From Pantanalinema sp. GBBB05 (GTDB lineage: Bacteria; Cyanobacteriota; Cyanobacteriia; Leptolyngbyales; Leptolyngbyaceae), in the NCBI RefSeq assembly GCF_016743235.1, contig NZ_VRZD01000005.1, positions 175,622 through 239,621 of the forward strand: a stretch of DNA of 64,000 nt. Direction: 5' to 3'. Shown piece by piece: positions 42,451 to 58,475 of the stretch. The position numbers and the translations under genes were made by a program. Position 1 is the stretch's first letter. The number at the start of each line of letters is the position of its first letter. Below the pieces are notes generated by a model. It did not search any database. It saw only the letters and a program-made list of their open reading frames with translations, and was not told where the DNA came from.

Positions 42451-42720
42451 ATGGGAGGAAATGAAGTGAATCGTTTAACCACGATGGAGACGCTGACAGC
42501 GATTCTGATTGATTTAGGGATTCCAGCCACAGCCCTCCAGGAAGACACCTTACTGCATGGACATTTAGGTTTGGATTCTGTGGAAACTGTCAAGCTGGCT
42601 CTGGAACTAAAACGGAGGCTAGACATCGACATGCCCTTGGGCACTCGTAATGACATGTCATTAGCCGAGATTTGTCAACGGGTAGAAGTAGCTCTATCCA
42701 CTCAATCCTCCGGCTGTTGA
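42451..42720 (+). CDS. Stand-alone acyl/aryl carrier protein
   Basis: About 85-aa acidic protein with the phosphopantetheine-attachment motif GLDSVETVKLALEL. Confidence 0.7.
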   Translation: MGGNEVNRLTTMETLTAILIDLGIPATALQEDTLLHGHLGLDSVETVKLALELKRRLDIDMPLGTRNDMSLAEICQRVEVALSTQSSGC

Positions 42721-44318: not shown

Positions 44319-45664
44319 GTTTCTTTACGCAGGTATTTCCAATGTATCCAATTGCTACTGCCCCGATCGTTTATCACGAGTTATTCGTTCCAGTTCAGAA
44401 AGACCCGCAGTCCGTTTTACAGAATTTGCTAGAGATGGGATTGTTTTCGAGCTACATCCTGTATCACGGTGAGCAGGAGACCCGGATTGCTGGCAATGCT
44501 CTAGGTCGCATTACGGTGAGTACAGAAGCCATACAGGTTAATTGTCTGGGGGAAAGTCAGACTTACCCGATCGCAGATCCACTGCAACAGGTGGAGTCCG
44601 CCTTAGGATCGCTCCCGATTGAAGACTGGACTGCCTACGGTTACGTCAGCTTTGATCTGGCTCGCTTTTACTATCCCTATACTAAAGCGATGCCACACCC
44701 CCTCCTACATCTGTTTATCCCCGAAACTGAGCTACATATCACAGCGAAAGGAATGCGGATTAGAAGTGTGAAGTCACTACCCAAAATTCTGGAAGCCCTA
44801 TCGATAGAACGCCCCTGCCGCGCCTATACCGCTACCCCACCAGTCGTAGATTTTAGTGATCGTGACAACTATCAAACTCAAGTCAGTCAACTGATTCAGG
44901 CAATTCAAGCGGGACATTTACATAAAGCAATCCTATCTCGTTCCGTCACCCTGCAAGGTGAAATGGATGTGCTAGGAACCTACTGTTTAGGAGCGAGTAG
45001 TAATCCAGCCGTACGATCGTATTGTTTTCAGTTGGATGATTTATCTGCGGTTGGGTTTAGTCCCGAAATTTTAATGACTGTAGATGCCGATCGCGGTGTG
45101 ATTACTAATCCTCTCGCTGGAACTCGTCCACGCTCAGATAACCCTGAGCAAGACCAACAATGGCATCATGAGTTGTTTACGGATGCGAAAGAGGTGAAAG
45201 AACATGCCCTCTCGATTTGGCTCGCTCAAGCAGAGATGTCTTCATTTTGTGTACCTGACACCGTTCGCGTGTTTGATTTTATGCAGGTGAAACCCTACCG
45301 ATGCGTACAGCACTTGTCATCGCGGGTCGGTGGAGAGTTACAAGCTGGAAAAACCCTCTGGGATGCCCTGAAAGTTTTACTACCTGGGATTACAGTATCT
45401 GGAATTGACAAACAGCAAGCATTAGCCTGGATCGATCGCTTAGAAGCTACGCCCAGAGGTATCTATGCCGGGGGCATCGGCTGGATTAATCACCAGGGAA
45501 TTGCCGATTTTGCGATCGCGATTCGTTCTGTCTATCAATATGGTGATGCTATCCATTTCAATGCCGGAGCTGGAATTGTAGCGGAATCCGTACCAGAAAA
45601 CGAGTATCTGGAGTCTGTAAACAAAATGAATACAATGTTGACAAATTTAGTGTTAAAGCCGTAA
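44315..45664 (+). CDS. Chorismate-utilising enzyme (MST family), salicylate-synthase/isochorismate-synthase-like
   Basis: C-terminal chorismate-binding signature (...LAGTRPRS..., ...RGIYAGGIGWINHQGIADFAIAIRS..., ...AGAGIVAESVPENEYLES). At 449 aa its size matches MbtI/Irp9-type salicylate synthases. No amidotransferase partner gene is adjacent. Confidence 0.7.
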   Translation: MSFFTQVFPMYPIATAPIVYHELFVPVQKDPQSVLQNLLEMGLFSSYILYHGEQETRIAGNALGRITVSTEAIQVNCLGESQTYPIADPLQQVESALGSLPIEDWTAYGYVSFDLARFYYPYTKAMPHPLLHLFIPETELHITAKGMRIRSVKSLPKILEALSIERPCRAYTATPPVVDFSDRDNYQTQVSQLIQAIQAGHLHKAILSRSVTLQGEMDVLGTYCLGASSNPAVRSYCFQLDDLSAVGFSPEILMTVDADRGVITNPLAGTRPRSDNPEQDQQWHHELFTDAKEVKEHALSIWLAQAEMSSFCVPDTVRVFDFMQVKPYRCVQHLSSRVGGELQAGKTLWDALKVLLPGITVSGIDKQQALAWIDRLEATPRGIYAGGIGWINHQGIADFAIAIRSVYQYGDAIHFNAGAGIVAESVPENEYLESVNKMNTMLTNLVLKP

Positions 45665-45834: not shown

Positions 45835-47127
45835 TTATTCGCGATCGTGATCCGGTAGTAAATCTTCAGCCTGACGCAGTACAGGGATCATATATCCCCC
45901 TACCCCAATCAGAATCATACTCATGGCAGCCAGGATTACTAGTACAGCAATGCCAGCCCCCATATCCGTCCCCAGCCAAGGTGCCCAGAGTGAAGAGAAC
46001 CATCCACCCGAATTCATCATCGGTGCAAAAACGCGATCGACTAATGGTCCAGCCAGCAAGCTCGCCATAGCTCCCACAATTAAACCCAGCGTATGGGCTG
46101 TCGCTAACACTCGTCCTTGAACTGCTACCGGAACCTTGGCATACCAGATGGCATAGCTGGAACTAAATGCCAGGGGAATATGGAATGCCGAGAAAAACTG
46201 CGCTCCCATCCAAATCCAAGGAATGCGACCTAATCCTAATAAGAGATCACCCATACCTGCACCAATAAATCCCAATAACATGCCATTCATACGCCGATGG
46301 AAACCACCCAAAATACTTAAACTGGTAGCACCAACTACACCGCCTACCCCTGCTGCAATCACAACAGTGCTGAGCACTTGAGCGTTCCCATCAGTGCGGG
46401 CAAGAATGAGCGGTTGGGATAAGGTTTCACTCAGTTGGTGAGTAAACAGAAATAAGCAAAAAATTAGCGTCATTGCCAGCAGACTAGGTCTGGCTAAGAT
46501 GTAATTTAGCCCCCAGAATAGTTGCTGCCAAATTGACTTGCCATTGATTTGTTCTGCTTCCGCATGATCGGGTTGGGGAATTTTGACTAGTAATACGCTG
46601 GTCATACCGATCGCAAACGTTATTAGATCAATCAACAGAATCCCCATTAATCCGATCGTGGGGTAAAGGCTACCCACTAAAGCAGGAGCAAGAATCGCGG
46701 AACTGTAGTCCACTACAGCACGCATACTACTCACGCGGGTATACTGCTGCTTTGACACCATTAAAGGAATCGAGGCAATATACGCCAGTCCTTGAATATG
46801 CCCAAAACAACCATAGGCAATAGCTAATCCATAGAGATGCCAGAGCTGTAGATGGGCGGTGAAGTAAAGCCCACCGATCGCTATCGTACAGAGCGCTACA
46901 CTGGCATCACTAAAAATCATTAAGAATTTGCGATTGCAGCGATCGATCACTAATCCAGAAAAGATACCAATTAAAATCTGTGGTAACTGAAAAAAGAAAC
47001 TTAGGAGGGCGATCGCAGTCGTCTCCTGGGTCAATTGCCAAATCCAGATGGTCAGTGCAAATTGAGTCATTGTGGTACCAATAGCAGATGCCATCTGACC
47101 ACTCCAGAGAATTGTGAAAGTTCGCAC
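45835..47127 (-). CDS. MFS transporter (putative product exporter, EntS/YbtX-like placement)
   Basis: 430 aa, about 12 TM. It is embedded within the biosynthetic genes. Confidence 0.75.
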   Translation of the reverse strand: MRTFTILWSGQMASAIGTTMTQFALTIWIWQLTQETTAIALLSFFFQLPQILIGIFSGLVIDRCNRKFLMIFSDASVALCTIAIGGLYFTAHLQLWHLYGLAIAYGCFGHIQGLAYIASIPLMVSKQQYTRVSSMRAVVDYSSAILAPALVGSLYPTIGLMGILLIDLITFAIGMTSVLLVKIPQPDHAEAEQINGKSIWQQLFWGLNYILARPSLLAMTLIFCLFLFTHQLSETLSQPLILARTDGNAQVLSTVVIAAGVGGVVGATSLSILGGFHRRMNGMLLGFIGAGMGDLLLGLGRIPWIWMGAQFFSAFHIPLAFSSSYAIWYAKVPVAVQGRVLATAHTLGLIVGAMASLLAGPLVDRVFAPMMNSGGWFSSLWAPWLGTDMGAGIAVLVILAAMSMILIGVGGYMIPVLRQAEDLLPDHDRE

Positions 47128-47426: not shown

Positions 47427-49034
47427 GTGCAATCGGTACTACTAGAGTGCCCACTCAAGAAGAATTTAAGTTTTAACCTATCTGCCATGCTCACACAGTC
47501 AGTTGGTATTCGCTCACTGGCAGTCAGTTTTCCCAGTACTATCCGACCAAATCAGTATTGGTTAGACCAATTTCCCGACTTGTTTGTTGCCAGTGAACAA
47601 CGACAAGCCCGACAACATCAATCGCTAACAGTTCAACCTGCACAGACCAGATTTGAACAAGCTGGCATTGATCTCTGGTTACAGGAAGTTACCCCATACC
47701 TCGCCGACCCATTTCGCGGGAGTGTGGAACGTCGGGTGCTGCTCCCTCATGAGTCATCGCTAATGCTGGAGTGCCAAGCAGCTCAGGAAGCTCTCCAGGC
47801 AGCAGAGCTGTCACCGGATCAGATTGATCTGGCGATCGTGACCTCTCTATTTCCCGATGCCGTGGGTCCTGGTTCAGCCGCTGACTTTGCTCGGGCATTG
47901 GGCTTATCTTGCCCCGCTTGGAGTTTGGAATCTACTTGTAGCAGTGCATTGGTCGCTTTACAAACAGCCCAAGCATTCGTGCAACACGGAACTTATCGCA
48001 CCGTTTTAATTGTTGTTTCACACGTTGGTTCTCGAGCTGTCAATGAGGCTGATACCCTGTCGTGGTCCTTAGGCGATGGGGCAGGAGCCTGGATCGTTAG
48101 TCATGTTCCTGCCGATCGGGGCATTCTCAGTACACATATCATGCCAACTACCGCTACTTGTGGTGCTTATGTCCATGAGCTGGTGATTGATCAGTCGGGT
48201 GCACCTCGGATCCAAACTCGCACTGGTGATCAAGCAAGTCGGTTAGCTGAGACAGCAGTAGATACTGTTCGCCAATGCTGTCAGGCAGCTGTGCAAGCGG
48301 CAGGGGTTAGCCTCGATCAAATTGCCTGCTTTGCCATCAATACTCCGACCGCCTGGTATGCCAGCGTCTGTGCCAAGGCGTTAGGAATTGATCCGGCACG
48401 AATCATGAATCTCTACCCGGTATATGCCAACATTGGTCCAGTATTTCCCATGGCAAATCTGCATCATGCCGCCACAACAGGACAACTGCAAGCCCATGAT
48501 CTGGTGCTGGTATACACTAATGGTGCAGCCGCAACCGCAGCCGCAACAGTGATGCGGTGGGGAAAGGTGGCTTTGGGAACATCTCCTACCCAATCATGCC
48601 AGCGATCGCCACAGCCTAGGGAATTATCTAGAGCAGCCCCGATCTCTAGCCTGAATGAACTCGAAAAAGAAGAGGTAGGACTAACAGATCTACGATCGCA
48701 ATTGCTGGCAGCTCTTCCCCGCGATCGCCACTCTATTCTGGAAGCTGCTTTGCTGGAATGGTTGGCACAGGCACGGCAACTTGAGCCAGCTCAACTTAAC
48801 AGCCAATCCCTATTAACCACAGTATTGGATTCTTTAATGGCAATCGTTCTGCGTCATCGGCTCGAAACAGAGTTGCAGATACCAGTACCAATGGAGGCAT
48901 TTTTTGGTGAGCAGACGATCGCAGATCTAATTAATTTTTTACTTCAACAACTGATGATCTCAGAATTAGTTGAGACAAATGCGATCGTCTTAAATTCCAG
49001 CCATTCGGTAGAACGAGAGATCTTCAGTTTATAA
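47427..49034 (+). CDS. KAS III (FabH)-like enzyme fused to a C-terminal carrier-protein (ACP/PCP-like) domain
   Basis: FabH-like fold with nucleophile elbow LESTCSSALVAL and Asn motif YANIGP. A C-terminal extension of about 100 aa carries the phosphopantetheine motif VLDSLMAIVLRHRLETEL. Confidence 0.65.
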   Translation: MQSVLLECPLKKNLSFNLSAMLTQSVGIRSLAVSFPSTIRPNQYWLDQFPDLFVASEQRQARQHQSLTVQPAQTRFEQAGIDLWLQEVTPYLADPFRGSVERRVLLPHESSLMLECQAAQEALQAAELSPDQIDLAIVTSLFPDAVGPGSAADFARALGLSCPAWSLESTCSSALVALQTAQAFVQHGTYRTVLIVVSHVGSRAVNEADTLSWSLGDGAGAWIVSHVPADRGILSTHIMPTTATCGAYVHELVIDQSGAPRIQTRTGDQASRLAETAVDTVRQCCQAAVQAAGVSLDQIACFAINTPTAWYASVCAKALGIDPARIMNLYPVYANIGPVFPMANLHHAATTGQLQAHDLVLVYTNGAAATAAATVMRWGKVALGTSPTQSCQRSPQPRELSRAAPISSLNELEKEEVGLTDLRSQLLAALPRDRHSILEAALLEWLAQARQLEPAQLNSQSLLTTVLDSLMAIVLRHRLETELQIPVPMEAFFGEQTIADLINFLLQQLMISELVETNAIVLNSSHSVEREIFSL

Positions 49035-49200: not shown

Positions 49201-52200
49201 TTGAGTTTGTATATGGACTTACACTCACTCCTAATTTCACTTGCCCAACAGGGAATTAAATTAGCCCTAGAGGATGACTCTCTCCAGGTTGATGCTCCTA
49301 AAGGAGCTTTAACACCTGAACTACGAGACCTACTGAGACAACAAAAGACTGAGATTTTGACCCTGTTACGACAACACCGTGTTAGCAATTTAGTCACTGA
49401 TTTACCCATAATTGTTCCCGATCTAGAGTCCCGATTTGAGCCATTTCCGCTGACTGATATGCAGCATGCTTTTTGGATTGGGCGTAGTGGCATCTTGGAA
49501 CTGGGTCATGTTTCTAATCATGGTTATTACGAAATTGAAGGGAAACACTTAGATCTGGAGCGACTAAACTCTACTCTGCAACAATTGATTGCTCGCCATG
49601 ACATGCTCCGGGCCGTTGTGTTACCCGATGGACGGCAACAAATTTTGTCAGACGTGCCACCTTACCAAATCAAGGTGGTAGATTTGCGGGAGGTTTCCCC
49701 CGCAACAGTGGACTCCCAACTAGCAGAAATCCGGCAGGAAATGTCCCATCAGGTTTTACCTGCCGATCGCTATCCCTTGTTTGAATTCCGCGCCACGCAG
49801 TTAGCTGGAGATCGGGTTCGTTTGCATATCAGTTACGATCTGCTGGTATTTGATGCCTGGAGTTTGTTCCGCTTGTTTGAAGAGTGGTTTCAACTGTATC
49901 AACATCCCGATCGCGATTTACCACCGTTAGAACTCTCTTTTCGGGATTATGTCCTGGCAGAGCAATCTCTCCCTCAGACTCAGCTTTATCAGCGATCGCA
50001 GGAGTACTGGCTCAACCGAATTGACAGCCTACCCCCTGCTCCAGATCTCCCCTTAGCCCAAAATCCCCAACAACTACAACATCACCAATGTCGTCGCTAT
50101 GACGGACGGATGGCACCTGATGTTTGGCAAGCACTGAAGCAAAAAGCAACGAATGCTGGGCTAACTCCATCCGGGCTATTACTCGCAGCTTTTGCCGAAG
50201 TGATTACCCTGTGGAGCCAGAATCCCCAGTTCACATTGAATCTGGCGCTGTTTAATCGCTTACCGATGCATCCCCAGGTGAATCAGATTTTGGGTGACTT
50301 TACCTCTGTCACCTTGTTAGCCGTAGACAACTCCCCGTATGAACCGTTCCGCGATCGGGCATTACGCATTCAGCAGCAACTCTGGCAAGATCTGGAACAC
50401 CGTTACTTCAGTGGGGTGCGAGTCACCCGCGAGTTAACTCGACGCCAAGGAAATGTTCCCAATGCCATGCCCGTGATTTTCACCAGTACTTTAGGCTTTG
50501 CTGGAATTGGGCAGGAAACTTTAACGTTTAGTCATTTTGGCGAACTCGTTTACGGTATTAGCCAAGCTTCTCAAGCCTGGATGGATATCCAAGTTTGGGA
50601 AGAGAAAGACACATTAACCTTCAATTGGGATGTGGTTGAAGACCTGTTCCCAGAAGGTTTAGTTGCCGATATGTTTGATAGCTATTGCCGATTGCTGAGC
50701 CAACTTGCCACCTCGGATGCTAGTTGGGTAGAACACAACCCTGCACGATTACCACCTGCTCAGCTCGCTCAACGTCAGGTGGTCAATGCCACTGATGCTC
50801 CCATCCCAGACACGTTGTTACACGAATTATTTTTAGCACAGGTTCAACAATGTCCCAACCACCCAGCCATCATCACGTCACAACAAACCCTGACGTATCA
50901 AACAGTATGCGATCGAGCGTGTCAGGTGGGGCATCGCCTGCGCCGGTTAGGGATAACGCCGAATCATCTAGTTGCTGTAGTCATGGACAAGGGCTGGGAA
51001 CAGGTTGTTGCCGGGCTGGGAATTCTGATCGCCGGTGCGGCCTATGTGCCAATCGCGCCGGATCTACCGCCAGAACGGTTCCAGTATTTACTGAACCAGA
51101 GTGAAGTTCAGCTCGTTCTCACTCAATCCTGGCTGGATCAAACGTTGCCATGGCTAGAGCATATACCGCGATTGTGTGTAGACGGTTCAGATTTTGCGAC
51201 TGAGCCTCAAACCCTACTGGAGTCAGTGCAAACTCCAGACGATCTAGCGTATGTCATCTATACATCTGGTTCCACCGGATTACCCAAAGGTGTGATGATT
51301 ACTCACCGCAATGTTGCCAATGTGGTGATTTACACGAATCAACGCTTCCAAGTGAGTTCCCACGATCGCGCTTTAGCCTTGACCGCCTTAAATCATGATT
51401 TGTCAGTTTATGACATGTTTGGGTTACTCAGTGCCGGAGGCGCGATCGTCATACCGGATGCCTGTTTAGTCAAAAATCCACAACATTGGACGAAACTGAT
51501 CCAGCAACACCAGGTCACGATCTGGAACTCAGTGCCAGCGATGATGGAAATGTGGATCAATACCGTGCTAGCAGATCGTCTACATGATCGCTCAGAAGCG
51601 GCATTTTCCAGTTTGCGCTTGGCAATTTTGGGTGGCGATTGGTTACCCGTGTCTCTCCCCGATCGCCTGCGAGCCTTAGTCCCCAAGATTCAATTACTCA
51701 GCATTGGGGGACCGACGGAAACGACAATTTGGAATATTGGCTATGAGGTCAGTGACGTTGATCCGAGCTGGAAAAGTATTCCCTACGGTCAGCCGATGGC
51801 AAATGCCAAATATTTCATTTTGAATCATGCCTTGGCAGACTGTCCAGTTTGGGTTCCCGGTCAAATGTACTGTGCTGGTGTGCAGTTAGCTCAGGGGTAC
51901 TGGCAAGATCCTGAAAAAACGAATGCCAGCTTTATTATCCATCCTGACACAGGGGAACGGCTTTACCGAACGGGCGATCGCGGGCGCTATTTGCCCAATG
52001 GCATGATTGAGTTTTTAGGGCGAGTTGATTTCCAAATTAAGTTGCGGGGTCATCGCATTGAAGCAGGAGAAATTGAAGCCACGTTAGTGCAGCATCCAAT
52101 GGTGAAAGCGGTGGTGATTAAGGTGATTGGAGTCCATCAGCATGCCCAACTCATCGCTTATGTCGTACCACAAGCCGCAACCTTGCCAACAGTGGCAGAA

Positions 52201-52695
52201 CTCAGTCAATTCCTCAGCCGTAAACTGCCAGCCTACATGGTACCAGAGCGGTTTCTGTTTCTGGAAGCATTACCACTATCAGCTAACGGCAAAGTCGATC
52301 GACAGGCACTTCCTACAGAGGATATCCAGTTGCAAACCCGCCCAGTGGTCCATACAGCCCCTCAAACTGAGATCGAGCAAACGATCGCAACAGTATTTCA
52401 AGAGGTGTTAGGCATGGCAACCGTCAGCGTGACTGATAACTTCTTTGAGTTAGGGGCAAACTCGTTGTTGATGACACTCGTCTACCGCCAGTTAGGCGCC
52501 ATATTGCCCGAGGAAATGCGATCGATTGCCCTAGTTGATTTATTTCGGTATCCAACGGTCAGAACGTTAGCCCAACAGTTGACTCAAGTGGCACAGAGCC
52601 ACGATTCAGAGCCACAACTAATTGAGACTACCCAGAAATTGAGTCAGGGCAAACATCGGCTCAAACAACGCTTCGAGAAATCAAGACTGGCTTAG
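49201..52695 (+). CDS. NRPS module: heterocyclisation (Cy) - adenylation (Cys-type) - PCP
   Basis: Cy motifs FPLTDMQHAFWIGR, RHDMLRAVVLPDGRQQIL, DLLVFDAWS (DxxxxDxxS), TPSGLLLAAFAEVITLWS, LGDFTS, PVIFTSTLG, QAWMDIQVWEE. A-domain LAYVIYTSGSTGLPKGV, NHDLSVYD (Stachelhaus D-L-..-Y as in Cys codes), GGPTETTIWN, YRTGDRGRY. PCP FFELGANSLL. Confidence 0.9.
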   Translation: MSLYMDLHSLLISLAQQGIKLALEDDSLQVDAPKGALTPELRDLLRQQKTEILTLLRQHRVSNLVTDLPIIVPDLESRFEPFPLTDMQHAFWIGRSGILELGHVSNHGYYEIEGKHLDLERLNSTLQQLIARHDMLRAVVLPDGRQQILSDVPPYQIKVVDLREVSPATVDSQLAEIRQEMSHQVLPADRYPLFEFRATQLAGDRVRLHISYDLLVFDAWSLFRLFEEWFQLYQHPDRDLPPLELSFRDYVLAEQSLPQTQLYQRSQEYWLNRIDSLPPAPDLPLAQNPQQLQHHQCRRYDGRMAPDVWQALKQKATNAGLTPSGLLLAAFAEVITLWSQNPQFTLNLALFNRLPMHPQVNQILGDFTSVTLLAVDNSPYEPFRDRALRIQQQLWQDLEHRYFSGVRVTRELTRRQGNVPNAMPVIFTSTLGFAGIGQETLTFSHFGELVYGISQASQAWMDIQVWEEKDTLTFNWDVVEDLFPEGLVADMFDSYCRLLSQLATSDASWVEHNPARLPPAQLAQRQVVNATDAPIPDTLLHELFLAQVQQCPNHPAIITSQQTLTYQTVCDRACQVGHRLRRLGITPNHLVAVVMDKGWEQVVAGLGILIAGAAYVPIAPDLPPERFQYLLNQSEVQLVLTQSWLDQTLPWLEHIPRLCVDGSDFATEPQTLLESVQTPDDLAYVIYTSGSTGLPKGVMITHRNVANVVIYTNQRFQVSSHDRALALTALNHDLSVYDMFGLLSAGGAIVIPDACLVKNPQHWTKLIQQHQVTIWNSVPAMMEMWINTVLADRLHDRSEAAFSSLRLAILGGDWLPVSLPDRLRALVPKIQLLSIGGPTETTIWNIGYEVSDVDPSWKSIPYGQPMANAKYFILNHALADCPVWVPGQMYCAGVQLAQGYWQDPEKTNASFIIHPDTGERLYRTGDRGRYLPNGMIEFLGRVDFQIKLRGHRIEAGEIEATLVQHPMVKAVVIKVIGVHQHAQLIAYVVPQAATLPTVAELSQFLSRKLPAYMVPERFLFLEALPLSANGKVDRQALPTEDIQLQTRPVVHTAPQTEIEQTIATVFQEVLGMATVSVTDNFFELGANSLLMTLVYRQLGAILPEEMRSIALVDLFRYPTVRTLAQQLTQVAQSHDSEPQLIETTQKLSQGKHRLKQRFEKSRLA

Positions 52696-52712: not shown

Positions 52713-55700
52713 GTGAGTACAAATCAAACGGGTTTGGAAATTGCGATCGTTGGTTTAGCAGGACGATTTCCAGGTGGAGCAAGTATTGATGATTTTTGGC
52801 ACAATCTCAAAACAGGCGTAGAGTTAGTTACACCCTTTGCAGCCCAACAGTCGGTTGCCGAGGAGGATGCCAAGGATTGCCACCGCTCCCAGCCGATCGT
52901 CAGAGCAGGCGCAGTATTGCAGAATGTCGATCAATTTGATGCCGCGTTCTTCGGCTTCAATCCAGGCGAGGCAGCCGCTTTAGATCCCCAACATCGGTTG
53001 TTTTTAGAATGTGCTTGGGAAGCGCTAGAAACGGCTGGATACAGTTCAGAAACACCAGACCGTCCGATCGGGGTGTTTGCAGGAGTCGGGATGGGGACTT
53101 ACTTACTGTATAACCTCAGCCCCAACCCTGGTTTGATCGAATCACGGGGCTTCCTCCCGACCGTAGTTGGAGTCGATAAAGATTATCTACCAACCCGAGT
53201 TTCCTATAAATTAAACCTCACAGGACCGAGTGTGAGCGTGGGCACAGCTTGCTCCAGTTCCTTAGTCGCTGTGCATCTAGCTTGCCAGAGTTTGCTGAGT
53301 GGAGAATGCGATCTGGCATTAGCAGCAGGTGTTGCTGTCAAAGTCCCACAAGATGGACACACGTTATCGCCAGACGAGATTGTTTCTCCAGACGGACATT
53401 GTCGGGCATTTGATGCCAACGCGAATGGCACTGTAGGGGGTAACGGCATTGGCGTAGTAGTACTCAAGCGCTTGGAGGATGCGATCGCCGATCGTGACCA
53501 CATTTATGCTGTGATTAAAGGGTCTGCAATCAATAACGATGGCGCCATGAAGGTCAGCTATACAGCCCCCAGCCAGGAGGGACAAGCCAAAGTTATTCGA
53601 GCAGCTCATCTGATGGCAGACGTTGAACCGGAAACGATTACTTACCTGGAAACTCACGGCACTGGCACCGCTTTGGGTGATCCGATCGAAGTTGCTGCCA
53701 TGACCCAAGCCTTTCGGATGGCAACGGATCGAACTGGCTTTTGTGCGATCGGCTCGGTCAAAACCAATGTGGGGCATTTAGATGCAGCGGCGGGAATTAC
53801 AGGCTTAATTAAAACGGTACTGGCACTTTACTATCGCCAAATCCCTCCCAGCATTAACTTTGAGACGCCTAACACCCAAATCGATTTTGCCAATAGTCCG
53901 TTTTATGTCAATGCTCAACTGAGGGATTGGCACACGCAGGGCATGCCCCGACGAGCAGGAGTCAGTTCCTTTGGCTTTGGCGGCACTAACGTTCATCTTG
54001 TGCTGGAAGAAGCTCCAGTGGGCGTTGCAGAGGATACCATCCCCCCCCAACAACGCCCCTATCAGTTGCTGACACTATCGGCAAAAACCCCAACCGCGTT
54101 GGCGCAAGCAACGGTTAATCTCCACGATCGCCTGCAGCAATCCCCTGAACTGGATCTCGCTGATGTTGCCTACACGCTTCAAGTCGGACGATGGGAATTG
54201 CCCTATCGCCGGATTGTGGTTGCCCAAACATTGGACGATGCCGTGCAACGCTTAGCAGGCGCTCAGTCGCTTCCTGTGGACACAGCACACCCTCACAGCA
54301 TTGATCCACCAGTGATTTTCATGTTTCCGGGTCAGGGTTCCCAAGCGGTCAATATGGCACGGCAACTGTATGAGCACGAACCAACTTTTCGAGCCGAGTG
54401 CGATCGCTGCTTTGCGCTACTACAAACTAAACACAATTTAGATTTACGCGCCGTACTATATCCCGATCGTGCTGATGATAGCCAGCCACTAACCCAGACA
54501 GCGATCGCTCAACCAGCATTGTTTGTCGTCGAATACGCCCTAGCAAAACTCTGGATGGCCTGGGGAGTACAACCGCGATCGTTGATTGGGCACAGCATTG
54601 GTGAATATGTCGCTGCTTGTCTGGCAGGTGTCTTTACCCTTGAGGATGCCTTAAGCTTAGTGACTGTACGTGCCCAATTGATGCAGCAACAGCCACCTGG
54701 AGCCATGCTCGCGGTCCATTTATCGGCTGATGCTGTGCAGCCATTTTTATCTGACAGTCTTTCCCTGGCGGCTAACAACAGCCCTAACCTCTGTGTTATT
54801 TCTGGGGCAACAGCCGCGATCGCGCAACTGGAAGATCAGTTAACAGCCCAGGGGATTGATTGTCGGCGATTACACACCTCCCATGCGTTTCATTCCCCCA
54901 TGATGGCAGCCGTCATCGAACCATTGGTTCAATACTTACACGATATTCGGCTACATCCACCCCAAATCCCGATCATTTCTAATCTCACAGGCAAATGGTT
55001 AACGATCGAGGAAGCCACTGATCCACATTATTGGGCACAGCATTTACGTCAGACAGTCCAGTTTGCTCCAGGCATCGCTGAATTGTTGTTGCAAGCAGAC
55101 GCGATCTTCCTAGAAGTGGGACCAGGGCGGACTCTGGCAACGCTAGCCAAACACCAAGCCAGCGATCGCGTTATCCTCACCTCGTTGTCACACCACCAAG
55201 AAGCAGTGGAGGATGGGCAATCCTTACTACACACTCTGGGACGGCTGTGGTTAAGTGGCGTTCCCATTCACTGGGCGAACTTCTATACCCATCAATCCCG
55301 CCACCGGGTGCCATTGCCGACTTATCCATTTGAACGTCAGCGTTATTGGATTGATCCGCCTCAGTCCTCCCCAATCACCACTACTACACTCTCTAAACGT
55401 CCGGATATTGCTGATTGGTTCTATAGTCCCTCCTGGAAACGATCTGCTTTACCGCCGATCGCGGTCAGTGATTCCACCCGTTGTTGGGTCGTTTTTGTCG
55501 ATCGGAGTGGGTTGGCTACGGCTCTGATCCAACGGCTTCAGCACCAGGGAGATCGGGCGATTCAGGTTCAAGCGGGGGAGGAATTTAGTCAATCCCACCC
55601 AGATGGTTACACAATTAATCCTAGTGATCGCTCCCATTATGATGCTCTGATTCAAGCCATCCTTGCCTCTGAGCCAACTCCAATTCTGGCTCACTTATGG

Positions 55701-57332
55701 ACAGTCGATCAGGATCTTACCTTCACTACTACTCAAGCCCTTGGTTTTTACAGTTTGCTCTACTTAGCGCAAGCACTAGGGCAACAGTCGCTTGCTCATC
55801 CGCTTCATATCAATGTGATTTCTAGCCACAGCCAAGAGATTACTGGTGAAGAAATTTGCCCCGAAAAAGCCACAGTCTTAGGAGCTTGCAAAGTTATTCC
55901 TCAGGAATATGCAACGCTCTCTTGCAGTTTAATTGATGTCGTTATTCCTGACACAGAGCTATCTACTAATGAGACACTGGTTGAGCAACTTATTCACGAA
56001 ATGCTAATCCAGTCTACTCAACCCTCTGATCCAGTGATTGCCTATCGAGGTCGTTATCGTTGGTTGCCGATTTATGAACCCATGCGTCTGGAAGCAGTAC
56101 ATCAGCCCGATCCCTTACGATCGCAGGGCGTATATTTGATTACGGGTGGTTTAGGAGGAATTGGACTCACCATTGCTGAGTATTTGGCAAACACAGTACA
56201 AGCCAAACTTGTTCTAGTGAGCCGTTCAGCGTTGCCACCTCGAAGTGAGTGGGAAGCATGGTTAGCCACTCATCCAGAGTCAGATGCCACCACAGTAAAG
56301 CTGCAAACAATTCAAGGGTTAGAAGCACTCGGTTCAGAGGTATTAATTCTGAAGGCTGATGTGGCAGATCAGCAACAAATGCAAACGGCGATCGAGCAAA
56401 CTCAGCAAAGCTTTGGGCAACTTCATGGCATCTTTCATACGGCTGGTGTACCAGGAAATGGGATTATTCAGCTTAAAACACCTGCAATGGTAGAAGCTGT
56501 TATGGCAGCTAAAGTCCAGGGTACGCTGGTTCTGCATCACGTTTGTCAGAATCTCCCGCTGGATTTTCTGGTACTATTCTCCTCTCATAGCGCGATTTTG
56601 GGTGGTATGGGGCAGGTAGACTACTGTGCCGCCAATAATTTTCTTGATGCATTGGCTGGCTCGCAAATGGCTCAACAACATTACCGGACGATTGCCATCA
56701 ACTGGGATATCTGGCAAGAGATTGGCATGGGTGCAGATCTGACTCAATTACCCGATCGCTTACGACAGGAGCGGTTAGAGAGCCTCAAAACTGGCATTTC
56801 ACCTCAGGAAGGCGTAGAAGCACTGCACCGAATTTTGCATAGTGGATGCAATCAAGTTGTTGTTTCCACCAGAGATTGGCAAGGTGTGCTGCAGCAAGCC
56901 CAGCAACGAACGACCGTCGCAGTAGAGCAAAACTCAATCAATTCACCATCCCTACCATCCAGTTCAACGGAACATTCGCGATCGCTCCAATCCACAACCT
57001 ATATCGCGCCTAGCAATGAGATTGAGCAACGAATAGCGGCGCTCTGGCAAGAACAACTGGGGATTGCCGCTATAGGTGTCCATGACAACTTCTTTGAACT
57101 AGGAGGACACTCGTTGCTAGCGGTGCGGATCATATCGCGATTACGAGAACTATATCCAGTTGAGCTATCACTCCGGGTGTTGCTGTCTGAAGCTCCTACA
57201 GTGGCAGGTTTAGCCCAAGTAATTGCCAAGCAACTTTCCCAACTAGATGATATCGATGAACTCGCGAGAATTCTCGCAGAGATTGAACAGTTGTCTCCAG
57301 AGGCAGTGCAAGCCCAATTAGCTCAAAATTGA
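52713..57332 (+). CDS. Type I PKS module: KS - AT (malonyl-type) - KR - ACP
   Basis: KS GTACSSSLVAVHLA, ETHGTGTALGDPIE, NVGHLDAAAG. AT GHSIGEYVAACLAG with the HAFH specificity motif. KR Rossmann ITGGLGGIGL with catalytic S/Y/N region (SSHSAILGGMGQVDYCAANNF). ACP FFELGGHSLLAVRI. No DH, ER or MT motifs were seen. Confidence 0.9.
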   Translation: MSTNQTGLEIAIVGLAGRFPGGASIDDFWHNLKTGVELVTPFAAQQSVAEEDAKDCHRSQPIVRAGAVLQNVDQFDAAFFGFNPGEAAALDPQHRLFLECAWEALETAGYSSETPDRPIGVFAGVGMGTYLLYNLSPNPGLIESRGFLPTVVGVDKDYLPTRVSYKLNLTGPSVSVGTACSSSLVAVHLACQSLLSGECDLALAAGVAVKVPQDGHTLSPDEIVSPDGHCRAFDANANGTVGGNGIGVVVLKRLEDAIADRDHIYAVIKGSAINNDGAMKVSYTAPSQEGQAKVIRAAHLMADVEPETITYLETHGTGTALGDPIEVAAMTQAFRMATDRTGFCAIGSVKTNVGHLDAAAGITGLIKTVLALYYRQIPPSINFETPNTQIDFANSPFYVNAQLRDWHTQGMPRRAGVSSFGFGGTNVHLVLEEAPVGVAEDTIPPQQRPYQLLTLSAKTPTALAQATVNLHDRLQQSPELDLADVAYTLQVGRWELPYRRIVVAQTLDDAVQRLAGAQSLPVDTAHPHSIDPPVIFMFPGQGSQAVNMARQLYEHEPTFRAECDRCFALLQTKHNLDLRAVLYPDRADDSQPLTQTAIAQPALFVVEYALAKLWMAWGVQPRSLIGHSIGEYVAACLAGVFTLEDALSLVTVRAQLMQQQPPGAMLAVHLSADAVQPFLSDSLSLAANNSPNLCVISGATAAIAQLEDQLTAQGIDCRRLHTSHAFHSPMMAAVIEPLVQYLHDIRLHPPQIPIISNLTGKWLTIEEATDPHYWAQHLRQTVQFAPGIAELLLQADAIFLEVGPGRTLATLAKHQASDRVILTSLSHHQEAVEDGQSLLHTLGRLWLSGVPIHWANFYTHQSRHRVPLPTYPFERQRYWIDPPQSSPITTTTLSKRPDIADWFYSPSWKRSALPPIAVSDSTRCWVVFVDRSGLATALIQRLQHQGDRAIQVQAGEEFSQSHPDGYTINPSDRSHYDALIQAILASEPTPILAHLWTVDQDLTFTTTQALGFYSLLYLAQALGQQSLAHPLHINVISSHSQEITGEEICPEKATVLGACKVIPQEYATLSCSLIDVVIPDTELSTNETLVEQLIHEMLIQSTQPSDPVIAYRGRYRWLPIYEPMRLEAVHQPDPLRSQGVYLITGGLGGIGLTIAEYLANTVQAKLVLVSRSALPPRSEWEAWLATHPESDATTVKLQTIQGLEALGSEVLILKADVADQQQMQTAIEQTQQSFGQLHGIFHTAGVPGNGIIQLKTPAMVEAVMAAKVQGTLVLHHVCQNLPLDFLVLFSSHSAILGGMGQVDYCAANNFLDALAGSQMAQQHYRTIAINWDIWQEIGMGADLTQLPDRLRQERLESLKTGISPQEGVEALHRILHSGCNQVVVSTRDWQGVLQQAQQRTTVAVEQNSINSPSLPSSSTEHSRSLQSTTYIAPSNEIEQRIAALWQEQLGIAAIGVHDNFFELGGHSLLAVRIISRLRELYPVELSLRVLLSEAPTVAGLAQVIAKQLSQLDDIDELARILAEIEQLSPEAVQAQLAQN

Positions 57333-57404: not shown

Positions 57405-58475
57405 ATGAAATTCAGTCTATTCTATTTTTCTGGTGATGGTTCTACAACTGATCACAACAAGTACCGCCTATTAATCGAAGGGGCTAAGTTTGCCGATCGT
57501 CACGGGTTTGCCGGAGTTTGGATTCCTGAACGACATTTTGACGCTTTTGGCGGACTTTATCCCAATCCTGCTGTGGCTGGAGCCGCGATCGCGATGCTCA
57601 CGGAGCATATCCAAATCCGTTCTGGCAGTGTGGTGATGCCTCTACAACATCCATTGCGAGTGGCTGAAGAATGGGCAATGGTGGATAACCTATCGCAAGG
57701 TCGGGTCAGTCTTTCGTTTGCTCCAGGCTGGCATCCTCATGACTTTGTTCTGTATCCCGAAAATTACGCCAACAAAAAAGATATTATGTGGCGCGATATC
57801 CAAGTGGTGCAGCGACTCTGGCAGGGTGAGGCGATCGAGCTGACGGGAGGAAATGGCAAATTAGCCCAGATTCGGACGTTTCCGAGACCCTTGCAAACCC
57901 GCCTCCCCATTTGGATTACCGCTCTCTCAGACGATACCTTTGTGGAAGCAGGCAGAATTGGCGCACATATCCTGACGTCACCGCTGTATCAAAGTGTGGA
58001 TGAGATTTTTCGAAAAATCACCTTATATCGTCGATCGCGGGCACAGCATGGTCATGATCCCCAAAGCGGTCAGGTGGCATTGATGATTCATACCTTCCTG
58101 GGCAGTGATATCCAGGTTGTGAAAGCCCAGGTCAAATCACCCTTCAAAAATTATCTGAAAACTCATTTTGATTTAGTCGTCAAATCAGCAGGGGATCTAC
58201 GATTTTCGATCGATCCTCATACGCTCACACCTCAAGACCTGGATGATTTATTAGAGTTCAGTTTTGAGACTTACTTCAATGGCAAAGTACTGATGGGCAC
58301 TCCCGATCATTGCCAAACACTGATCAGCTATTTTCAACAAGCTGGAGTGAATGAAATTGCCGCTTTGATTGACTTTGGGATTGAATTCGATGATGTGATG
58401 GCAAGTTTAAATTTGCTGAAAGACATGAATCGCGATTCCCATCAAACTCGATCTTTACAAGCTTCCTGTTCTTGA
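57405..58475 (+). CDS. Luciferase-like monooxygenase (LLM) family flavin-dependent oxidoreductase
   Basis: Typical LLM N-terminus MKFSLFYFSGDG...RLLIEGAKFADRHGFAGVWIPERHF. Confidence 0.8.
   Translation: MKFSLFYFSGDGSTTDHNKYRLLIEGAKFADRHGFAGVWIPERHFDAFGGLYPNPAVAGAAIAMLTEHIQIRSGSVVMPLQHPLRVAEEWAMVDNLSQGRVSLSFAPGWHPHDFVLYPENYANKKDIMWRDIQVVQRLWQGEAIELTGGNGKLAQIRTFPRPLQTRLPIWITALSDDTFVEAGRIGAHILTSPLYQSVDEIFRKITLYRRSRAQHGHDPQSGQVALMIHTFLGSDIQVVKAQVKSPFKNYLKTHFDLVVKSAGDLRFSIDPHTLTPQDLDDLLEFSFETYFNGKVLMGTPDHCQTLISYFQQAGVNEIAALIDFGIEFDDVMASLNLLKDMNRDSHQTRSLQASCS

What the first reader, a model, noticed from the sequence alone, without database searches (positions are those of the whole stretch)
49201..52695. 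Cy-A-PCP module with cysteine-type adenylation signature (thiazoline-forming)
All seven Cy-domain core motifs are recognisable, including DLLVFDAWS in place of the HHxxxDG of ordinary C domains. The A domain shows D-L-x-x-Y at the first Stachelhaus positions (NHDLSVYD) and the GGPTE variant of the A5 motif (IGGPTETTIWN), both characteristic of Cys-activating A domains of HMWP2/PchE/BlmIV type. There is no embedded MT or Ox domain, so thiazoline oxidation state would be set in trans, with the neighbouring LLM flavoenzyme a candidate.
Basis: partly seen in the sequence, partly recalled or inferred. Interest (0 to 1): 0.55.

Follow-up and report, generated by a model that had tools for sequence, protein, structure and literature searches.

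The report
Salicylate-capped azoline-forming NRPS module
This gene encodes a genuine ring-forming (Cy-A-PCP) module of a cyanobacterial iron/metal-chelator assembly line, an ordinary kind of enzyme, but its amino-acid-selecting pocket is a conserved non-standard variant, so sequence alone cannot say whether it builds a sulfur ring (from cysteine) or an oxygen ring (from serine).

Summary
ORF 49201-52695 (likely true start ATG 49213) encodes docking domain-Cy-A-PCP. Every quoted motif is present, all published Cy functional residues are intact, and there is no MT or Ox insert.

The 10-residue code is DLYNIGIIWK, a 7/10 match to the Cys code DLYNLSLIWK. It differs at positions 299, 301 and 322.

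This exact code type recurs in 146 of 206 related cyanobacterial A domains. It is a separate pocket lineage from the canonical Cys pocket, which has been swapped into some orthologues by A-core recombination.

Product-linked relatives point both ways. The lusichelin orthologue (same lineage, different code) goes with a thiazoline. Leptochelin's equivalent module, behind the same loading cassette, installs Ser as an oxazoline. My estimate is Ser about 0.45, Cys about 0.4, other about 0.1.

The LLM is a PuwE/MupA-type monooxygenase. It more likely alpha-hydroxylates the PKS-extended chain than acts on the azoline ring.

The module sits in an uncharacterised, compact salicylate metallophore cluster found in about ten genera. 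Verdict: new member of a known kind, modest interest.

The parts
49201..52695 (+). dock-Cy-A-PCP NRPS gene (the finding); probable true start ATG at 49213
   Evidence: ORF list; Pfam domains; P0001 N-terminus; motif coordinates
49222..49374 (+). TubC_N-type beta-hairpin docking domain (aa 8-58)
   Evidence: PF18563, 64.4 bits against a cut-off of 26. In Iningainema P0112 this region is replaced by a direct fusion to the KSIII-ACP protein.
49447..50712 (+). Heterocyclization (Cy) domain (aa 83-504): DLLVFD at aa 213-218, gating Phe in LFNR (aa 350-353), Thr in FTS (aa 427-429), Asp+Gln in MDIQ (aa 461-464)
   Evidence: Alignment to EpoB, HMWP2, BmdB, FmoA3 and PchE Cy structures. Functional residues as defined in PMC9547227 and PMC8807600.
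50836..52293 (+). Adenylation domain (aa 546-1031), code D733 L734 Y737 N776 I809 G811 I835 I843 W844 K1031 = DLYNIGIIWK; His732 at A4; GGPTE at A5; no insert
   Evidence: MAFFT alignment anchored on GrsA numbering; PDB alignments
52378..52578 (+). PCP (aa 1060-1126), core FFELGANSL with carrier Ser
   Evidence: PF00550; motif
42451..42720 (+). Free-standing 89-aa ACP (LGLDSVETVKLALE), candidate first salicyl carrier
   Evidence: ORF. Orthologue annotated as acyl carrier protein on the Pseudanabaena plasmid. An 81-aa PP-binding gene sits at the same place in Anabaena WFMT.
42735..44318 (+). Benzoate-CoA ligase family enzyme (salicylate activation)
   Evidence: TIGR02262, 497 bits against a cut-off of 375; AMP-binding Pfam
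44315..45664 (+). Salicylate synthase (Irp9/MbtI type)
   Evidence: TIGR03494, 322.7 bits (cut-off 325.15, just under); Chorismate_bind; the Pseudanabaena orthologue is annotated as salicylate synthase
47427..49034 (+). KSIII-like domain fused to an ACP. Cys kept, FabH His replaced by Asn, Asn kept, carrier motif LDSL. Presumed salicyl transferase and donor carrier for the Cy domain.
   Evidence: Pfam; FabH alignment; sequence
52713..57332 (+). PKS module KS-AT(malonyl)-KR-ACP that accepts the azolinyl thioester
   Evidence: Pfam; active-site motifs GTACSS, HGTGT, NVGH, GHSIGE, HAFH, YCAAN
57405..58475 (+). MupA/Atu3671-family FMN-dependent LLM, PuwE-like; candidate alpha-hydroxylase of the ACP-bound chain
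   Evidence: TIGR04020, 475 bits; PuwE 6KET, 357 bits, E = 1e-105; role of PuwE in PMC4219810
58492..63189 (+). NRPS C-A-PCP-C, A code DAEDIGSIVK, terminal C with intact HHLITDGWS
   Evidence: Pfam; code; motifs
36563..39169 (-). TonB-dependent receptor with AMIN domain (uptake of the metallophore)
   Evidence: Pfam
39688..40947 (-). MFS transporter
   Evidence: Pfam
41103..42215 (-). AraC-family regulator
   Evidence: Pfam
45835..47127 (-). MFS transporter inside the cassette, conserved in window-type loci
   Evidence: Pfam; conservation

Best explanation
The gene encodes the first elongation module of a salicylate-capped NRPS/PKS metallophore assembly line in a Pantanalinema-like (Leptolyngbyaceae) cyanobacterium.

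Shown by sequence:
- The salicylate synthase makes salicylate.
- A benzoate-CoA-ligase-family enzyme, a free ACP and a KSIII-like/ACP didomain sit immediately upstream. The KSIII domain keeps its Cys but has lost the His needed for decarboxylative condensation.
- The module has a beta-hairpin docking domain, a complete Cy domain, an uninterrupted A domain and a PCP.
- An active KS-AT(malonyl)-KR-ACP module, a PuwE-type LLM and a C-A-PCP-C NRPS follow.

Inferred mechanism:
1. Salicylate is activated and handed, through the KSIII-like acyltransferase, to the ACP of the KSIII-ACP protein.
2. That protein docks on the N-terminal docking domain.
3. The A domain loads a small beta-nucleophilic amino acid on the PCP.
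4. The Cy domain condenses it with salicyl-S-ACP and cyclodehydrates it to 2-(2-hydroxyphenyl)-azolinyl-S-PCP.
5. The PKS extends this by one malonyl unit and reduces it. The LLM probably hydroxylates the result at C-2.
6. The chain is joined to an amino acid selected by an acidic pocket (DAEDIGSIVK) and released by the terminal C domain.

The ring stays at the azoline oxidation state, since the cluster contains no Ox domain or reductase.

The identity of the amino acid is not settled. The pocket DLYNIGIIWK is Cys-like but non-canonical. I put Ser (oxazoline) at about 0.45, Cys (thiazoline) at about 0.40 and Thr or other at about 0.1-0.15.
For: - Domain architecture and E-values.
- Cy functional residues all present: DxxxxD, Asp-Thr dyad, helper Gln, gating Phe.
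- Code DLYNIGIIWK.
- The ligase / salicylate synthase / KSIII-ACP / Cy-A-PCP cassette is conserved in about 45 of 79 reference-genome loci. The KSIII-ACP is fused to the module in Iningainema.
- The same cassette occurs in the clusters proposed for anachelin, fatuamide (FatD/E/G/H), lusichelin (LusP/Q) and leptochelin. All four compounds carry a salicyl-azoline or salicylamide cap.
- PKS active sites are intact.
- LLM is closest to PuwE.
- The full window-type architecture recurs in Pantanalinema, Pseudanabaena, Chamaesiphon, Alkalinema and other genera. On the complete Pseudanabaena plasmid it is flanked by siderophore ABC import genes, a TBDR and ExbBD-TonB.
Against: - No biochemical or chemical data exist for this cluster type; no paper was found.
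- The salicyl transfer route (CoA thioester or free ACP to KSIII to ACP) is inferred only from residue patterns.
- The substrate of the A domain is unresolved.
- Salicylate synthase scores 322.7 bits, just below the NCBIfam equivalog cut-off of 325.15.
- No PPTase or thioesterase lies inside the window.
Confidence: 0.85

Rival explanations
1. One reading: the A domain is Cys-specific and the module makes a hydroxyphenyl-thiazoline, as in PchE/HMWP2.
For: - 7 of 10 code positions equal the Cys code, including D235, L236, Y239, N278, I330, W331 and K517. It is the nearest code I know.
- The MG-type pocket (DMYNTGVLW) belongs to the same pocket lineage (up to 88% pocket identity). It occurs in the Roseofilum orthologue of LusQ, whose cluster matches lus gene for gene. 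Lusichelins carry a salicyl-thiazoline.
- Ser301, used by EntF and FmoA3 to recognise the Ser side chain, is absent.
- Some orthologues at the same cluster position carry the canonical Cys code.
Against: - The pocket differs from PchE's Cys pocket at S813 (Gly here), at A841 of GGATE (Pro here) and at F741 (His here).
- The IG lineage is less similar to verified Cys domains than the canonical lineage is: BmdB 46% against 55%, PchE 41% against 46%.
- The IG code type is fixed in 146 domains. MG and LS relatives differ at exactly the code positions or by A-core replacement, which suggests the classes are not equivalent.
- Leptochelin shows that a Cys-like first module behind this cassette can load Ser.
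Confidence: 0.4
2. The DLYNIGIIWK pocket is a Ser-selecting lineage built on a Cys-like scaffold, and the module makes a hydroxyphenyl-oxazoline (or salicyl-Ser after ring opening), as in leptochelin and anachelin.
For: - Leptochelin's first Cy-A(-MT) module follows the same benzoate-CoA ligase / salicylate synthase / KSIII cassette. It received a non-consensus 'serine (cysteine)' prediction and yields an oxazoline, with D-Ser found by Marfey analysis.
- All 11 MT-type first modules in the genome loci are IG-type, as are 26 of 39 MT-type domains overall.
- Anachelin's proposed cluster has the same cassette and uses Ser.
- FmoA3 proves that a D-x-Y-N...W-K / GGPTE scaffold can select a Ser-type substrate, and it is the top PDB hit for the pocket.
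- The pocket is a lineage distinct from the canonical Cys pocket.
Against: - The lec and anachelin sequences were never obtained, so their codes are unknown (searches failed).
- There is no polar residue at 301 or 322 as in EntF and FmoA3.
- An MG-type member of the same lineage goes with a thiazoline.
Confidence: 0.45
3. The pocket selects Thr (methyloxazoline) or another small residue, or is relaxed between Ser and Cys with the Cy domain or substrate supply deciding.
For: - Positions 278, 299 and 301 (N-I-G) equal those of the Thr code DFWNIGMVHK (my own knowledge of that code; positions).
- No Cy-domain residue distinguishes IG-type from canonical-type proteins, consistent with a tolerant Cy domain.
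Against: - I330 and W331 at the pocket floor and L236 and Y239 are Cys-like, not Thr-like.
- No cyanobacterial salicyl-methyloxazoline was found in the literature searched.
Confidence: 0.12
4. The neighbouring LLM flavoenzyme sets the oxidation state of the azoline in trans.
For: It is a flavin-dependent oxidoreductase encoded in the same operon, and no Ox domain or PchG/YbtU-type reductase is present in the window.
Against: - It belongs to the MupA/Atu3671 monooxygenase family (475 bits).
- It is 357 bits (E = 1e-105) to the PuwE Ox domain, which lies between a PKS and an NRPS module and is assigned to 2-hydroxylation of the acyl chain.
- It occupies the same PKS-to-NRPS position here.
- It occurs in only about 15 of about 45 loci with this module type, always together with the KS-AT-KR-ACP gene.
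- Relatives that do oxidise the ring carry an embedded nitroreductase-type Ox domain.
Confidence: 0.05

Closest known systems
FatG/FatH of the fatuamide A cluster (Leptolyngbya sp.; PMC11877528)
   Same: - Same order: benzoate-CoA ligase family (FatD), salicylate synthase (FatE), ACP (FatB), KAS III (FatG), then a Cy-A-PCP of 3474 nt (FatH).
- Fat also contains a KS-AT-KR-PCP (FatP) followed by a C-A-P-C NRPS (FatQ), like the window's back end.
- The product has a salicyl-azoline cap.
   Different: - Fatuamide has many more PKS/NRPS modules and no LLM was reported.
- FatQ is predicted to load Gly, not a DAEDIGSIVK substrate.
- The FatH code is unknown. A 1157-aa protein (P0155) from Leptolyngbya sp. 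SIO1D8, the strain whose proteins were the best hits for several Fat proteins, carries the canonical DLYNLSLIW, but on a contig with a halogenase rather than a KSIII gene upstream.
LusP/LusQ of the lusichelin cluster (Lusitaniella coriacea; PMC12210259)
   Same: - KSIII protein (500 aa) followed by a Cy-A-T protein (1149 aa), then a PKS.
- Salicylate synthase, AraC regulator and TBDR are present.
- The pocket of the Roseofilum orthologue belongs to the same lineage as ours.
   Different: - The orthologue's code is DMYNTGVLW, four code positions away from ours.
- The product is a thiazoline followed by further Cys modules with Ox and MT.
- No LLM.
Leptochelin module 2 (Leptothoe spp.; PMC11240249)
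   Same: Same loading cassette (benzoate-CoA ligase, salicylate synthase, oxoacyl-ACP synthase III) and the same position as first Cy-A module after salicylate.
   Different: - It carries an embedded MT-like epimerase.
- It installs Ser as an oxazoline.
- It is followed by NRPS modules (Phe, Ala) rather than a PKS.
- Its sequence and code were not available to me.
Anachelin candidate cluster, Anabaena cylindrica PCC 7122 (PMC4247773)
   Same: SalS, CoA ligase, 'KACP' (KSIII-ACP) and Cy-A-T, followed by KR-containing PKS modules.
   Different: - Uses Ser.
- Has two PKS modules (the first with an inactive AT), then Thr-Ser-Ser and a Dmaq chromophore.
- The sequence was not retrieved.
PchE (pyochelin) and HMWP2 (yersiniabactin)
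   Same: The same chemistry is expected, namely salicyl plus a beta-nucleophilic amino acid giving a hydroxyphenyl-azoline. The Cy domain is homologous along its whole length (HMWP2-Cy1 321 bits, PchE 230 bits) with the same catalytic residues.
   Different: - PchE and HMWP2 carry an N-terminal ArCP loaded by a PchD/YbtE aryl-AMP ligase, and an MT-like epimerase inside the A domain.
- Their pocket is DL[FY]N[LM]SLIWK with GGATE.
- The window's module has a docking domain instead of an ArCP, no insert, a DLYNIGIIWK pocket with GGPTE, and CoA-ligase/ACP/KSIII loading.
FmoA3 (JBIR-34/35; PDB 6LTA)
   Same: Stand-alone Cy-A-PCP tridomain. It is the best PDB hit for the pocket segment (160.6 bits), with the GGPTE A5 motif and Y239, N278 and W331.
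   Different: It activates alpha-methyl-L-Ser with code DAYNVSSCW. Ala236 and Ser301 are important for that activity and both are absent here.

Membership tests
NRPS heterocyclization (Cy) domain | DxxxxDxxS motif in place of the HHxxxDG of C domains | tested here: met
   DLLVFDAWS at aa 213-221 aligns with EpoB DLINVDLGS, HMWP2 DNLLLDGLS and BmdB DALLMDGAS.
NRPS heterocyclization (Cy) domain | Catalytic Asp-Thr dyad, helper Gln two residues after the Asp, and gating Phe (PMC9547227, PMC8807600) | tested here: met
   Thr in PVIFTS, Asp and Gln in WMDIQ, and Phe in LFNR all align with the corresponding residues of EpoB, HMWP2 and BmdB.
NRPS heterocyclization (Cy) domain | Full-length homology to solved Cy domains | tested here: met
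   EpoB 353 bits, HMWP2-Cy1 321, BmdB 288, FmoA3 259, PchE 230, each aligned over about 430 residues.
NRPS heterocyclization (Cy) domain | Demonstrated cyclodehydration activity | not testable with these tools
   Needs an enzyme assay or the product structure.
Cys-activating A domain of the PchE/HMWP2/BmdB type | 10-residue code DL[YF]N[LM]SLIWK | tested here: not met
   The code is DLYNIGIIWK, 7/10, differing at positions 299, 301 and 322. BmdB is DLYNLSLIW and PchE is DLFNLSLIW in the same alignment.
Cys-activating A domain of the PchE/HMWP2/BmdB type | Pocket-lining residues seen with Cys-AMP in PchE: F741, S813, A841/T842 of GGATE | tested here: not met
   His732, Gly811 and Pro838 (GGPTE) occupy those places.
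Cys-activating A domain of the PchE/HMWP2/BmdB type | Pocket subdomain groups with verified Cys activators | tested here: inconclusive
   IG-type pockets are 46% identical to BmdB, 41% to PchE and 46% to FmoA3. Canonical-code relatives are 55%, 46% and 46%. This makes a third lineage, equidistant from the Cys and alpha-Me-Ser references.
Cys-activating A domain of the PchE/HMWP2/BmdB type | Cys incorporated into the product | not testable with these tools
   Product-linked relatives are split: the lusichelin orthologue goes with a thiazoline and the leptochelin equivalent with an oxazoline.
Ser-activating A domain (EntF or FmoA3 type) | Ser301 plus His278/Asp331 (EntF type), or Ala236/Asn278/Ser301 (FmoA3 type) | tested here: not met
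   Only Asn278 is shared. Position 301 is Gly and 236 is Leu.
PCP (thiolation) domain | PP-binding fold with a carrier Ser in the core motif | tested here: met
   PF00550, 34 bits against a cut-off of 20.8; core FFELGANSL.
TubC_N beta-hairpin docking domain | Match to PF18563 at the N-terminus | tested here: met
   64.4 bits against a cut-off of 26, residues 8-58. The partner interaction was not tested.
Pyochelin/yersiniabactin-type salicyl loading | PchD/YbtE-type aryl-AMP ligase and an ArCP fused N-terminally to the Cy domain | tested here: not met
   The ligase is benzoate-CoA ligase family (TIGR02262, 497 bits). There is no ArCP in the module. The carriers are a free ACP and the ACP of a KSIII-ACP protein.
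Cyanobacterial salicylate/KSIII-ACP/Cy-A-PCP metallophore cassette (anachelin, fatuamide, lusichelin, leptochelin clusters) | Salicylate synthase, benzoate-CoA-ligase-family enzyme and KSIII(-ACP) directly upstream of a docking-domain Cy-A-PCP, with a TBDR and AraC regulator nearby | tested here: met
   All are present in the window. The same set occurs in about 45 of 79 genome loci and in the four published clusters.
MupA/Atu3671 (PuwE-like) LLM monooxygenase | Score above the TIGR04020 cut-off and close similarity to the PuwE Ox domain | tested here: met
   474.6 bits against 244.45; 6KET 356.9 bits. The substrate and reaction were not tested.

The most novel reading that the evidence does not exclude
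DLYNIGIIWK (with His at A4 and GGPTE at A5) marks a widespread cyanobacterial A-domain lineage that selects Ser rather than Cys although it is built on a Cys-like scaffold. If so, well over a hundred 'pyochelin synthetase'/Cys-annotated first modules of salicylate metallophore clusters actually make oxazolines. Thiazoline-making relatives would then have arisen either by point changes at four code positions (the MG type, as in lusichelin) or by recombinational replacement of the A-core (residues about 685-949) with a canonical Cys pocket. That would be a natural O/S switch on one conserved Cy scaffold.
Probability: 0.4. Interest if true: 0.55.

Novelty: new member of a known kind. Interest (0 to 1): 0.33.

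Why it matters
As it stands this is a routine NRPS module in a cluster family already noticed in cyanobacteria, so it changes little by itself. Two things give it some value.

1. The pocket code is fixed in about 146 related domains but is not assigned to any substrate. Standard predictors and annotations call it Cys, while the nearest product-linked precedents split between Ser and Cys. One adenylation assay, or one product formula, would calibrate predictions for a large set of cyanobacterial metallophore clusters.

2. The three pocket classes sit on an otherwise conserved Cy/docking scaffold, with a sharply bounded A3-A8 exchange unit. That is a ready-made natural template for A-subdomain swapping experiments.

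The compact cluster itself (salicyl-azoline, hydroxylated C2 extender, one more amino acid) is uncharacterised and occurs in about ten genera, including a complete Pseudanabaena plasmid. It is an accessible target for finding a new metallophore.

Tried and rejected
1. Hand and pairwise alignment to GrsA put positions 299 and 301 one residue off. I replaced this with a multiple alignment including canonical Cys modules.

2. Full-text searches for the codes DLYNIGIIWK, DLYNIG and DAEDIGS found nothing. DLYNLSLIWK found one unrelated survey.

3. Attempts to obtain the leptochelin, anachelin, FatH or LusQ sequences all failed:
- Supplements held no codes.
- The genome scan kept only the best 80 loci, none of them from the producer strains.
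- A second homology search seeded with Anabaena sp. WFMT and a third seeded with a pocket+MT+PCP fragment returned no Leptothoe or A. cylindrica protein.
- Cluster-member look-up gave no organism names.

4. Candidate lec-like contigs were rejected. L084 (P0128) has two halogenases and an MT-type module, but its GC is 41%, a PKS follows, and its code is MG-type. L085 is too short.

5. Anabaena sp. WFMT was tested as a possible anachelin cluster through the published 'inactive first AT' hallmark. Its AT is intact and the cluster is window-type.

6. Contig JBCCWF010000003, with IG, LS and IG Cy modules, is a fatty-acyl-primed pathway and not informative.

7. I looked for Cy-domain residues that co-vary with pocket class as a sign of O versus S adaptation. 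There are none; all discriminating positions lie in A-core residues 685-949.

8. The plasmid search did not reach a producer with known chemistry, but it did give a complete annotated orthologous cluster.

9. The upstream 36 kb was checked for sulfur-related or thiazoline-tailoring genes and none were found.

Not used: structure prediction, fold search and the representative-protein search. None of them would discriminate Cys from Ser.

Full report
**Observation.** The ORF list gives exactly 49201..52695 (+), 1164 aa with a TTG start. The 94%-identical homologue P0001 begins MDLHSLL, so the ATG at 49213 is the likelier start. Pfam finds a TubC_N docking domain (8-58), Condensation (83-504), AMP-binding (546-901), AMP-binding_C (957-1031) and PP-binding (1060-1126). 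The span from A3 to A10 is 348 aa. Relatives with an embedded Ox domain have about 600 aa there and those with an MT have about 735 aa, so the absence of an insert is real.

**Cy domain.** The region aligns end to end with every solved Cy domain: EpoB 353 bits, HMWP2-Cy1 321, BmdB 288, FmoA3 259 and PchE 230. The structural papers name the functional residues as the two DxxxxD aspartates, an Asp-Thr dyad, a helper Gln two residues after the Asp, and a gating Phe. All are present here: DLLVFD, the Thr of PVIFTS, the Asp and Gln of WMDIQ, and the Phe of LFNR.

**A-domain code.**
- A GrsA segment that reproduces the published DAWTIAAICK numbering was used as the anchor.
- Multiple alignment gives D733 L734 Y737 N776 I809 G811 I835 I843 W844 K1031, that is DLYNIGIIWK. 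An initial pairwise alignment was off by one at positions 299 and 301 and was discarded.
- The Cys code in the same alignments is DLYNLSLIW for BmdB and DLFNLSLIW for PchE. Ours matches at 7 of 10 positions.
- The PchE structure with Cys-AMP lists F741, S813 and A841/T842 among the pocket residues. Here these are His732, Gly811 and Pro838/Thr839.
PchE and BmdB have GGATEA, while the alpha-methyl-Ser activator FmoA3 has GGPTE and is the best PDB hit for the pocket segment (160.6 bits, against 142.4 for BmdB and 129.2 for PchE).
- Ser301, which helps EntF and FmoA3 recognise the Ser side chain, is also missing. The pocket fits neither reference type.

**How common the code is.**
- Across the 217 proteins retrieved, 146 of 206 A domains have DLYNIG[IV][IV] ('IG'), 35 have the canonical Cys code ('LS') and 25 have D[ML]YNxG[VA]x ('MG').
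- In 79 reference-genome loci, the first Cy-A module behind a salicylate cassette is mostly IG, sometimes MG and sometimes LS.
- LS members are 78-87% identical to their nearest IG relative in the Cy domain, and up to 98% in the docking domain. In the pocket region (aa 721-860) they are only 51-62% identical. IG-IG control pairs of lower overall identity keep 66-77% there.
- Every position that separates IG from LS lies between residues 685 and 949, that is from A3 to A8. None lies in the Cy domain.
- LS pockets are 55% identical to BmdB and IG pockets 46%. Both are 46% identical to FmoA3.
- The canonical Cys pocket and the IG pocket are therefore different subdomain lineages exchanged by recombination on one scaffold. 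MG pockets belong to the IG lineage (up to 88% pocket identity) but differ at four code positions.

**Links to known products.** Four cyanobacterial metallophore clusters share the window's front end.
- Fatuamide: FatD is a benzoate-CoA ligase family enzyme, FatE a salicylate synthase, FatB an ACP, FatG a KAS III and FatH a Cy-A-P. The product has a salicyl-thiazoline.
- Lusichelin: LusP is a KSIII and LusQ a Cy-A-T. The product has a thiazoline.
- Anachelin: SalS, CoAL, 'KACP' and Cy-A-T. The residue incorporated is Ser.
- Leptochelin: a benzoate-CoA ligase, a salicylate synthase and an oxoacyl-ACP synthase III. Its first Cy-A(-MT) module was predicted 'serine (cysteine)', and the product is an oxazoline with D-Ser.

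I could tie only one of these to a sequence. Roseofilum P0105 (code DMYNTGVLW, MG type) sits in a cluster whose gene sizes match LusN, O, P, Q and T, and LusQ is 83% identical to a Roseofilum protein.

A 1157-aa protein (P0155) from Leptolyngbya sp. SIO1D8 carries the canonical code. That strain's proteins were the best hits for several Fat proteins, but the gene context of P0155 differs from that of FatH.

The lec and anachelin sequences could not be obtained. All 11 MT-type first modules in the genome loci are IG-type, which makes it likely, though not shown, that lec module 2 is IG-type as well.

The evidence therefore points both ways. I estimate Ser about 0.45, Cys about 0.40 and other about 0.1-0.15.

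**Loading and context.** The module has no ArCP. The following lie upstream:
- an 89-aa free-standing ACP at 42451-42720 that the 150-aa ORF list missed;
- a benzoate-CoA-ligase-family enzyme (TIGR02262, 497 bits);
- a salicylate synthase (TIGR03494, 322.7 bits against a cut-off of 325.15);
- a KSIII-like/ACP protein.

The KSIII domain keeps the nucleophilic Cys (TCSS) and the Asn (YANIG), but has Asn where FabH has the catalytic His (INTPT against PHQAN). Its carrier motif is LDSL. This pattern suggests acyl transfer rather than decarboxylative condensation. In Iningainema the KSIII-ACP is fused directly to the Cy-A-PCP in place of the docking domain, which shows that the two proteins work together. 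Both the transfer route and the docking interaction are inferred.

The region from 1 to about 36 kb holds unrelated genes. The cluster starts at the TonB-dependent receptor at 36563.

**Downstream.**
- The PKS has intact KS residues (GTACSS, HGTGT, NVGH), a malonyl-type AT (GHSIGE, HAFH), a KR (GGLGGIG, YCAAN) and a carrier domain.
- The LLM scores 474.6 bits on TIGR04020, the MupA/Atu3671 family. Its nearest solved relative by far is the PuwE monooxygenase domain (6KET, 357 bits).
- In PuwE that domain lies between the PKS and NRPS parts and is assigned to forming the 2-hydroxy group of the 3-amino-2-hydroxy acyl unit.
- The window's LLM has the same position. It occurs in only about 15 of about 45 loci that have the cassette, always together with the KS-AT-KR-ACP gene. 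It is therefore better explained as an alpha-hydroxylase of the extended chain than as an azoline redox enzyme.
- Relatives that oxidise the ring carry an embedded nitroreductase-type Ox domain instead.
- The last NRPS is C-A-PCP-C, with code DAEDIGSIVK and an intact terminal HHLITDGWS. The acidic residues at positions 239 and 278 suggest a basic substrate. That reading is my own and was not tested.

**Cluster completeness.** The complete plasmid of Pseudanabaena sp. ABRG5-3 carries a 70.5%-identical orthologue. Its cluster reads: siderophore ABC import, TBDR, type II thioesterase, ACP, ligase, salicylate synthase, MFS, KSIII-ACP, Cy-A-PCP, PKS, LLM, a truncated last NRPS, then ExbB/ExbD/TonB. 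The window therefore contains essentially the whole assembly line. The same architecture with the same two A-domain codes recurs in Pantanalinema (84% identity), Chamaesiphon, Pseudanabaena, Alkalinema and several MAGs. No paper describing its product was found.

**Verdict.** The feature is real and correctly delimited. It is a normal Cy-A-PCP module of a cluster family already known in cyanobacteria, so it is a new member of a known kind. The specific claims 'cysteine-type signature', 'thiazoline-forming' and 'LLM sets the oxidation state' are respectively only partly true, unproven and unlikely. The interesting residue is an unassigned, highly conserved pocket code whose Cys-or-Ser identity could be settled by one assay.

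Noticed in passing
window 42451-42720 (+): An 89-aa free-standing acyl carrier protein (LGLDSVETVKLALE) lies just upstream of the ligase gene and overlaps nothing in the 150-aa ORF list. Orthologues occur at the same place in the Pseudanabaena plasmid, Anabaena sp. WFMT and Roseofilum, and as FatB in the fatuamide cluster. The cassette therefore has two salicyl-carrier candidates.
   Followed up: partly
window 47427-49034 (+): This KSIII-like domain is fused to an ACP. It keeps the FabH Cys and Asn but has Asn in place of the catalytic His, so it looks like an acyltransferase rather than a condensing enzyme. It is fused to the Cy-A-PCP in Iningainema tapete (P0112).
   Followed up: partly
window 57405-58475 (+): A stand-alone LLM, 357 bits to the PuwE monooxygenase domain (PDB 6KET), sits between the PKS and the next NRPS, as the Ox domain does inside PuwE. 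This predicts a 2-hydroxy group on the polyketide extender.
   Followed up: partly
window 58492-63189 (+): A C-A-PCP-C NRPS with the unassigned code DAEDIGSIVK (acidic pocket) and an intact terminal C domain, which may release the chain. The first C domain has HHSAGDA instead of HHxxxDG.
   Followed up: partly
window 63274-63762 (+): A 162-aa Cys-rich ORF (CPRC...CPHC, zinc-ribbon-like) lies directly after the last NRPS and has no Pfam or NCBIfam match. Whether it belongs to the cluster is unknown.
   Followed up: no
L083 29267-31603 (Pseudanabaena sp. ABRG5-3 plasmid): The orthologue of the last NRPS is only 778 aa. Most of its A-domain core is missing and the PCP serine is replaced by Phe (GGHFLL), so this copy of the pathway may be decaying or may release a shorter product.
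   Followed up: partly
Protein family alignment; window aa 685-949 (nt about 51253-52047): There is a sharply bounded A-core exchange unit. Orthologues with the canonical Cys code share 78-87% Cy-domain identity with IG-type proteins but only 51-62% in the pocket region, and all class-specific residues lie between A3 and A8.
   Followed up: yes
L075 (Coleofasciculaceae MAG, DALYJE010000003): Three consecutive Cy-A(MT)-PCP modules followed by a Cy-A(Ox) module, all coding DLYNLSLIWK. The layout is reminiscent of tantazole/mirabazole-type poly(methyl)thiazoline pathways.
   Followed up: no
L084 (GCA_034691575.1, JAXMNH011115798): A salicylate cassette with two FAD-dependent halogenases flanking the KSIII gene and an MG-type Cy-A(MT)-PCP. 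This predicts a halogenated salicyl-azoline metallophore distinct from leptochelin.
   Followed up: partly
L011/L069 (MAG P01_E01_bin.6, JBCCWF010000003): A fatty-acyl-primed pathway (FAAL, desaturase, P450, KS-AT-ACP) that uses IG-type, canonical-type and IG-type Cy-A-PCP modules in one assembly line. The IG pocket is therefore not restricted to salicylate-capped pathways.
   Followed up: partly
window 1-36000: Unrelated chromosomal genes: a sugar ABC transporter, a sulfatase, an OprB porin with an SLH domain, a second AraC regulator, a Mn catalase, a FIST-histidine kinase pair, SIR2, and GUN4, which together with the AMIN-domain TBDR supports a cyanobacterial origin. GC content is about 48% throughout, with no compositional break at the cluster edge.
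   Followed up: partly
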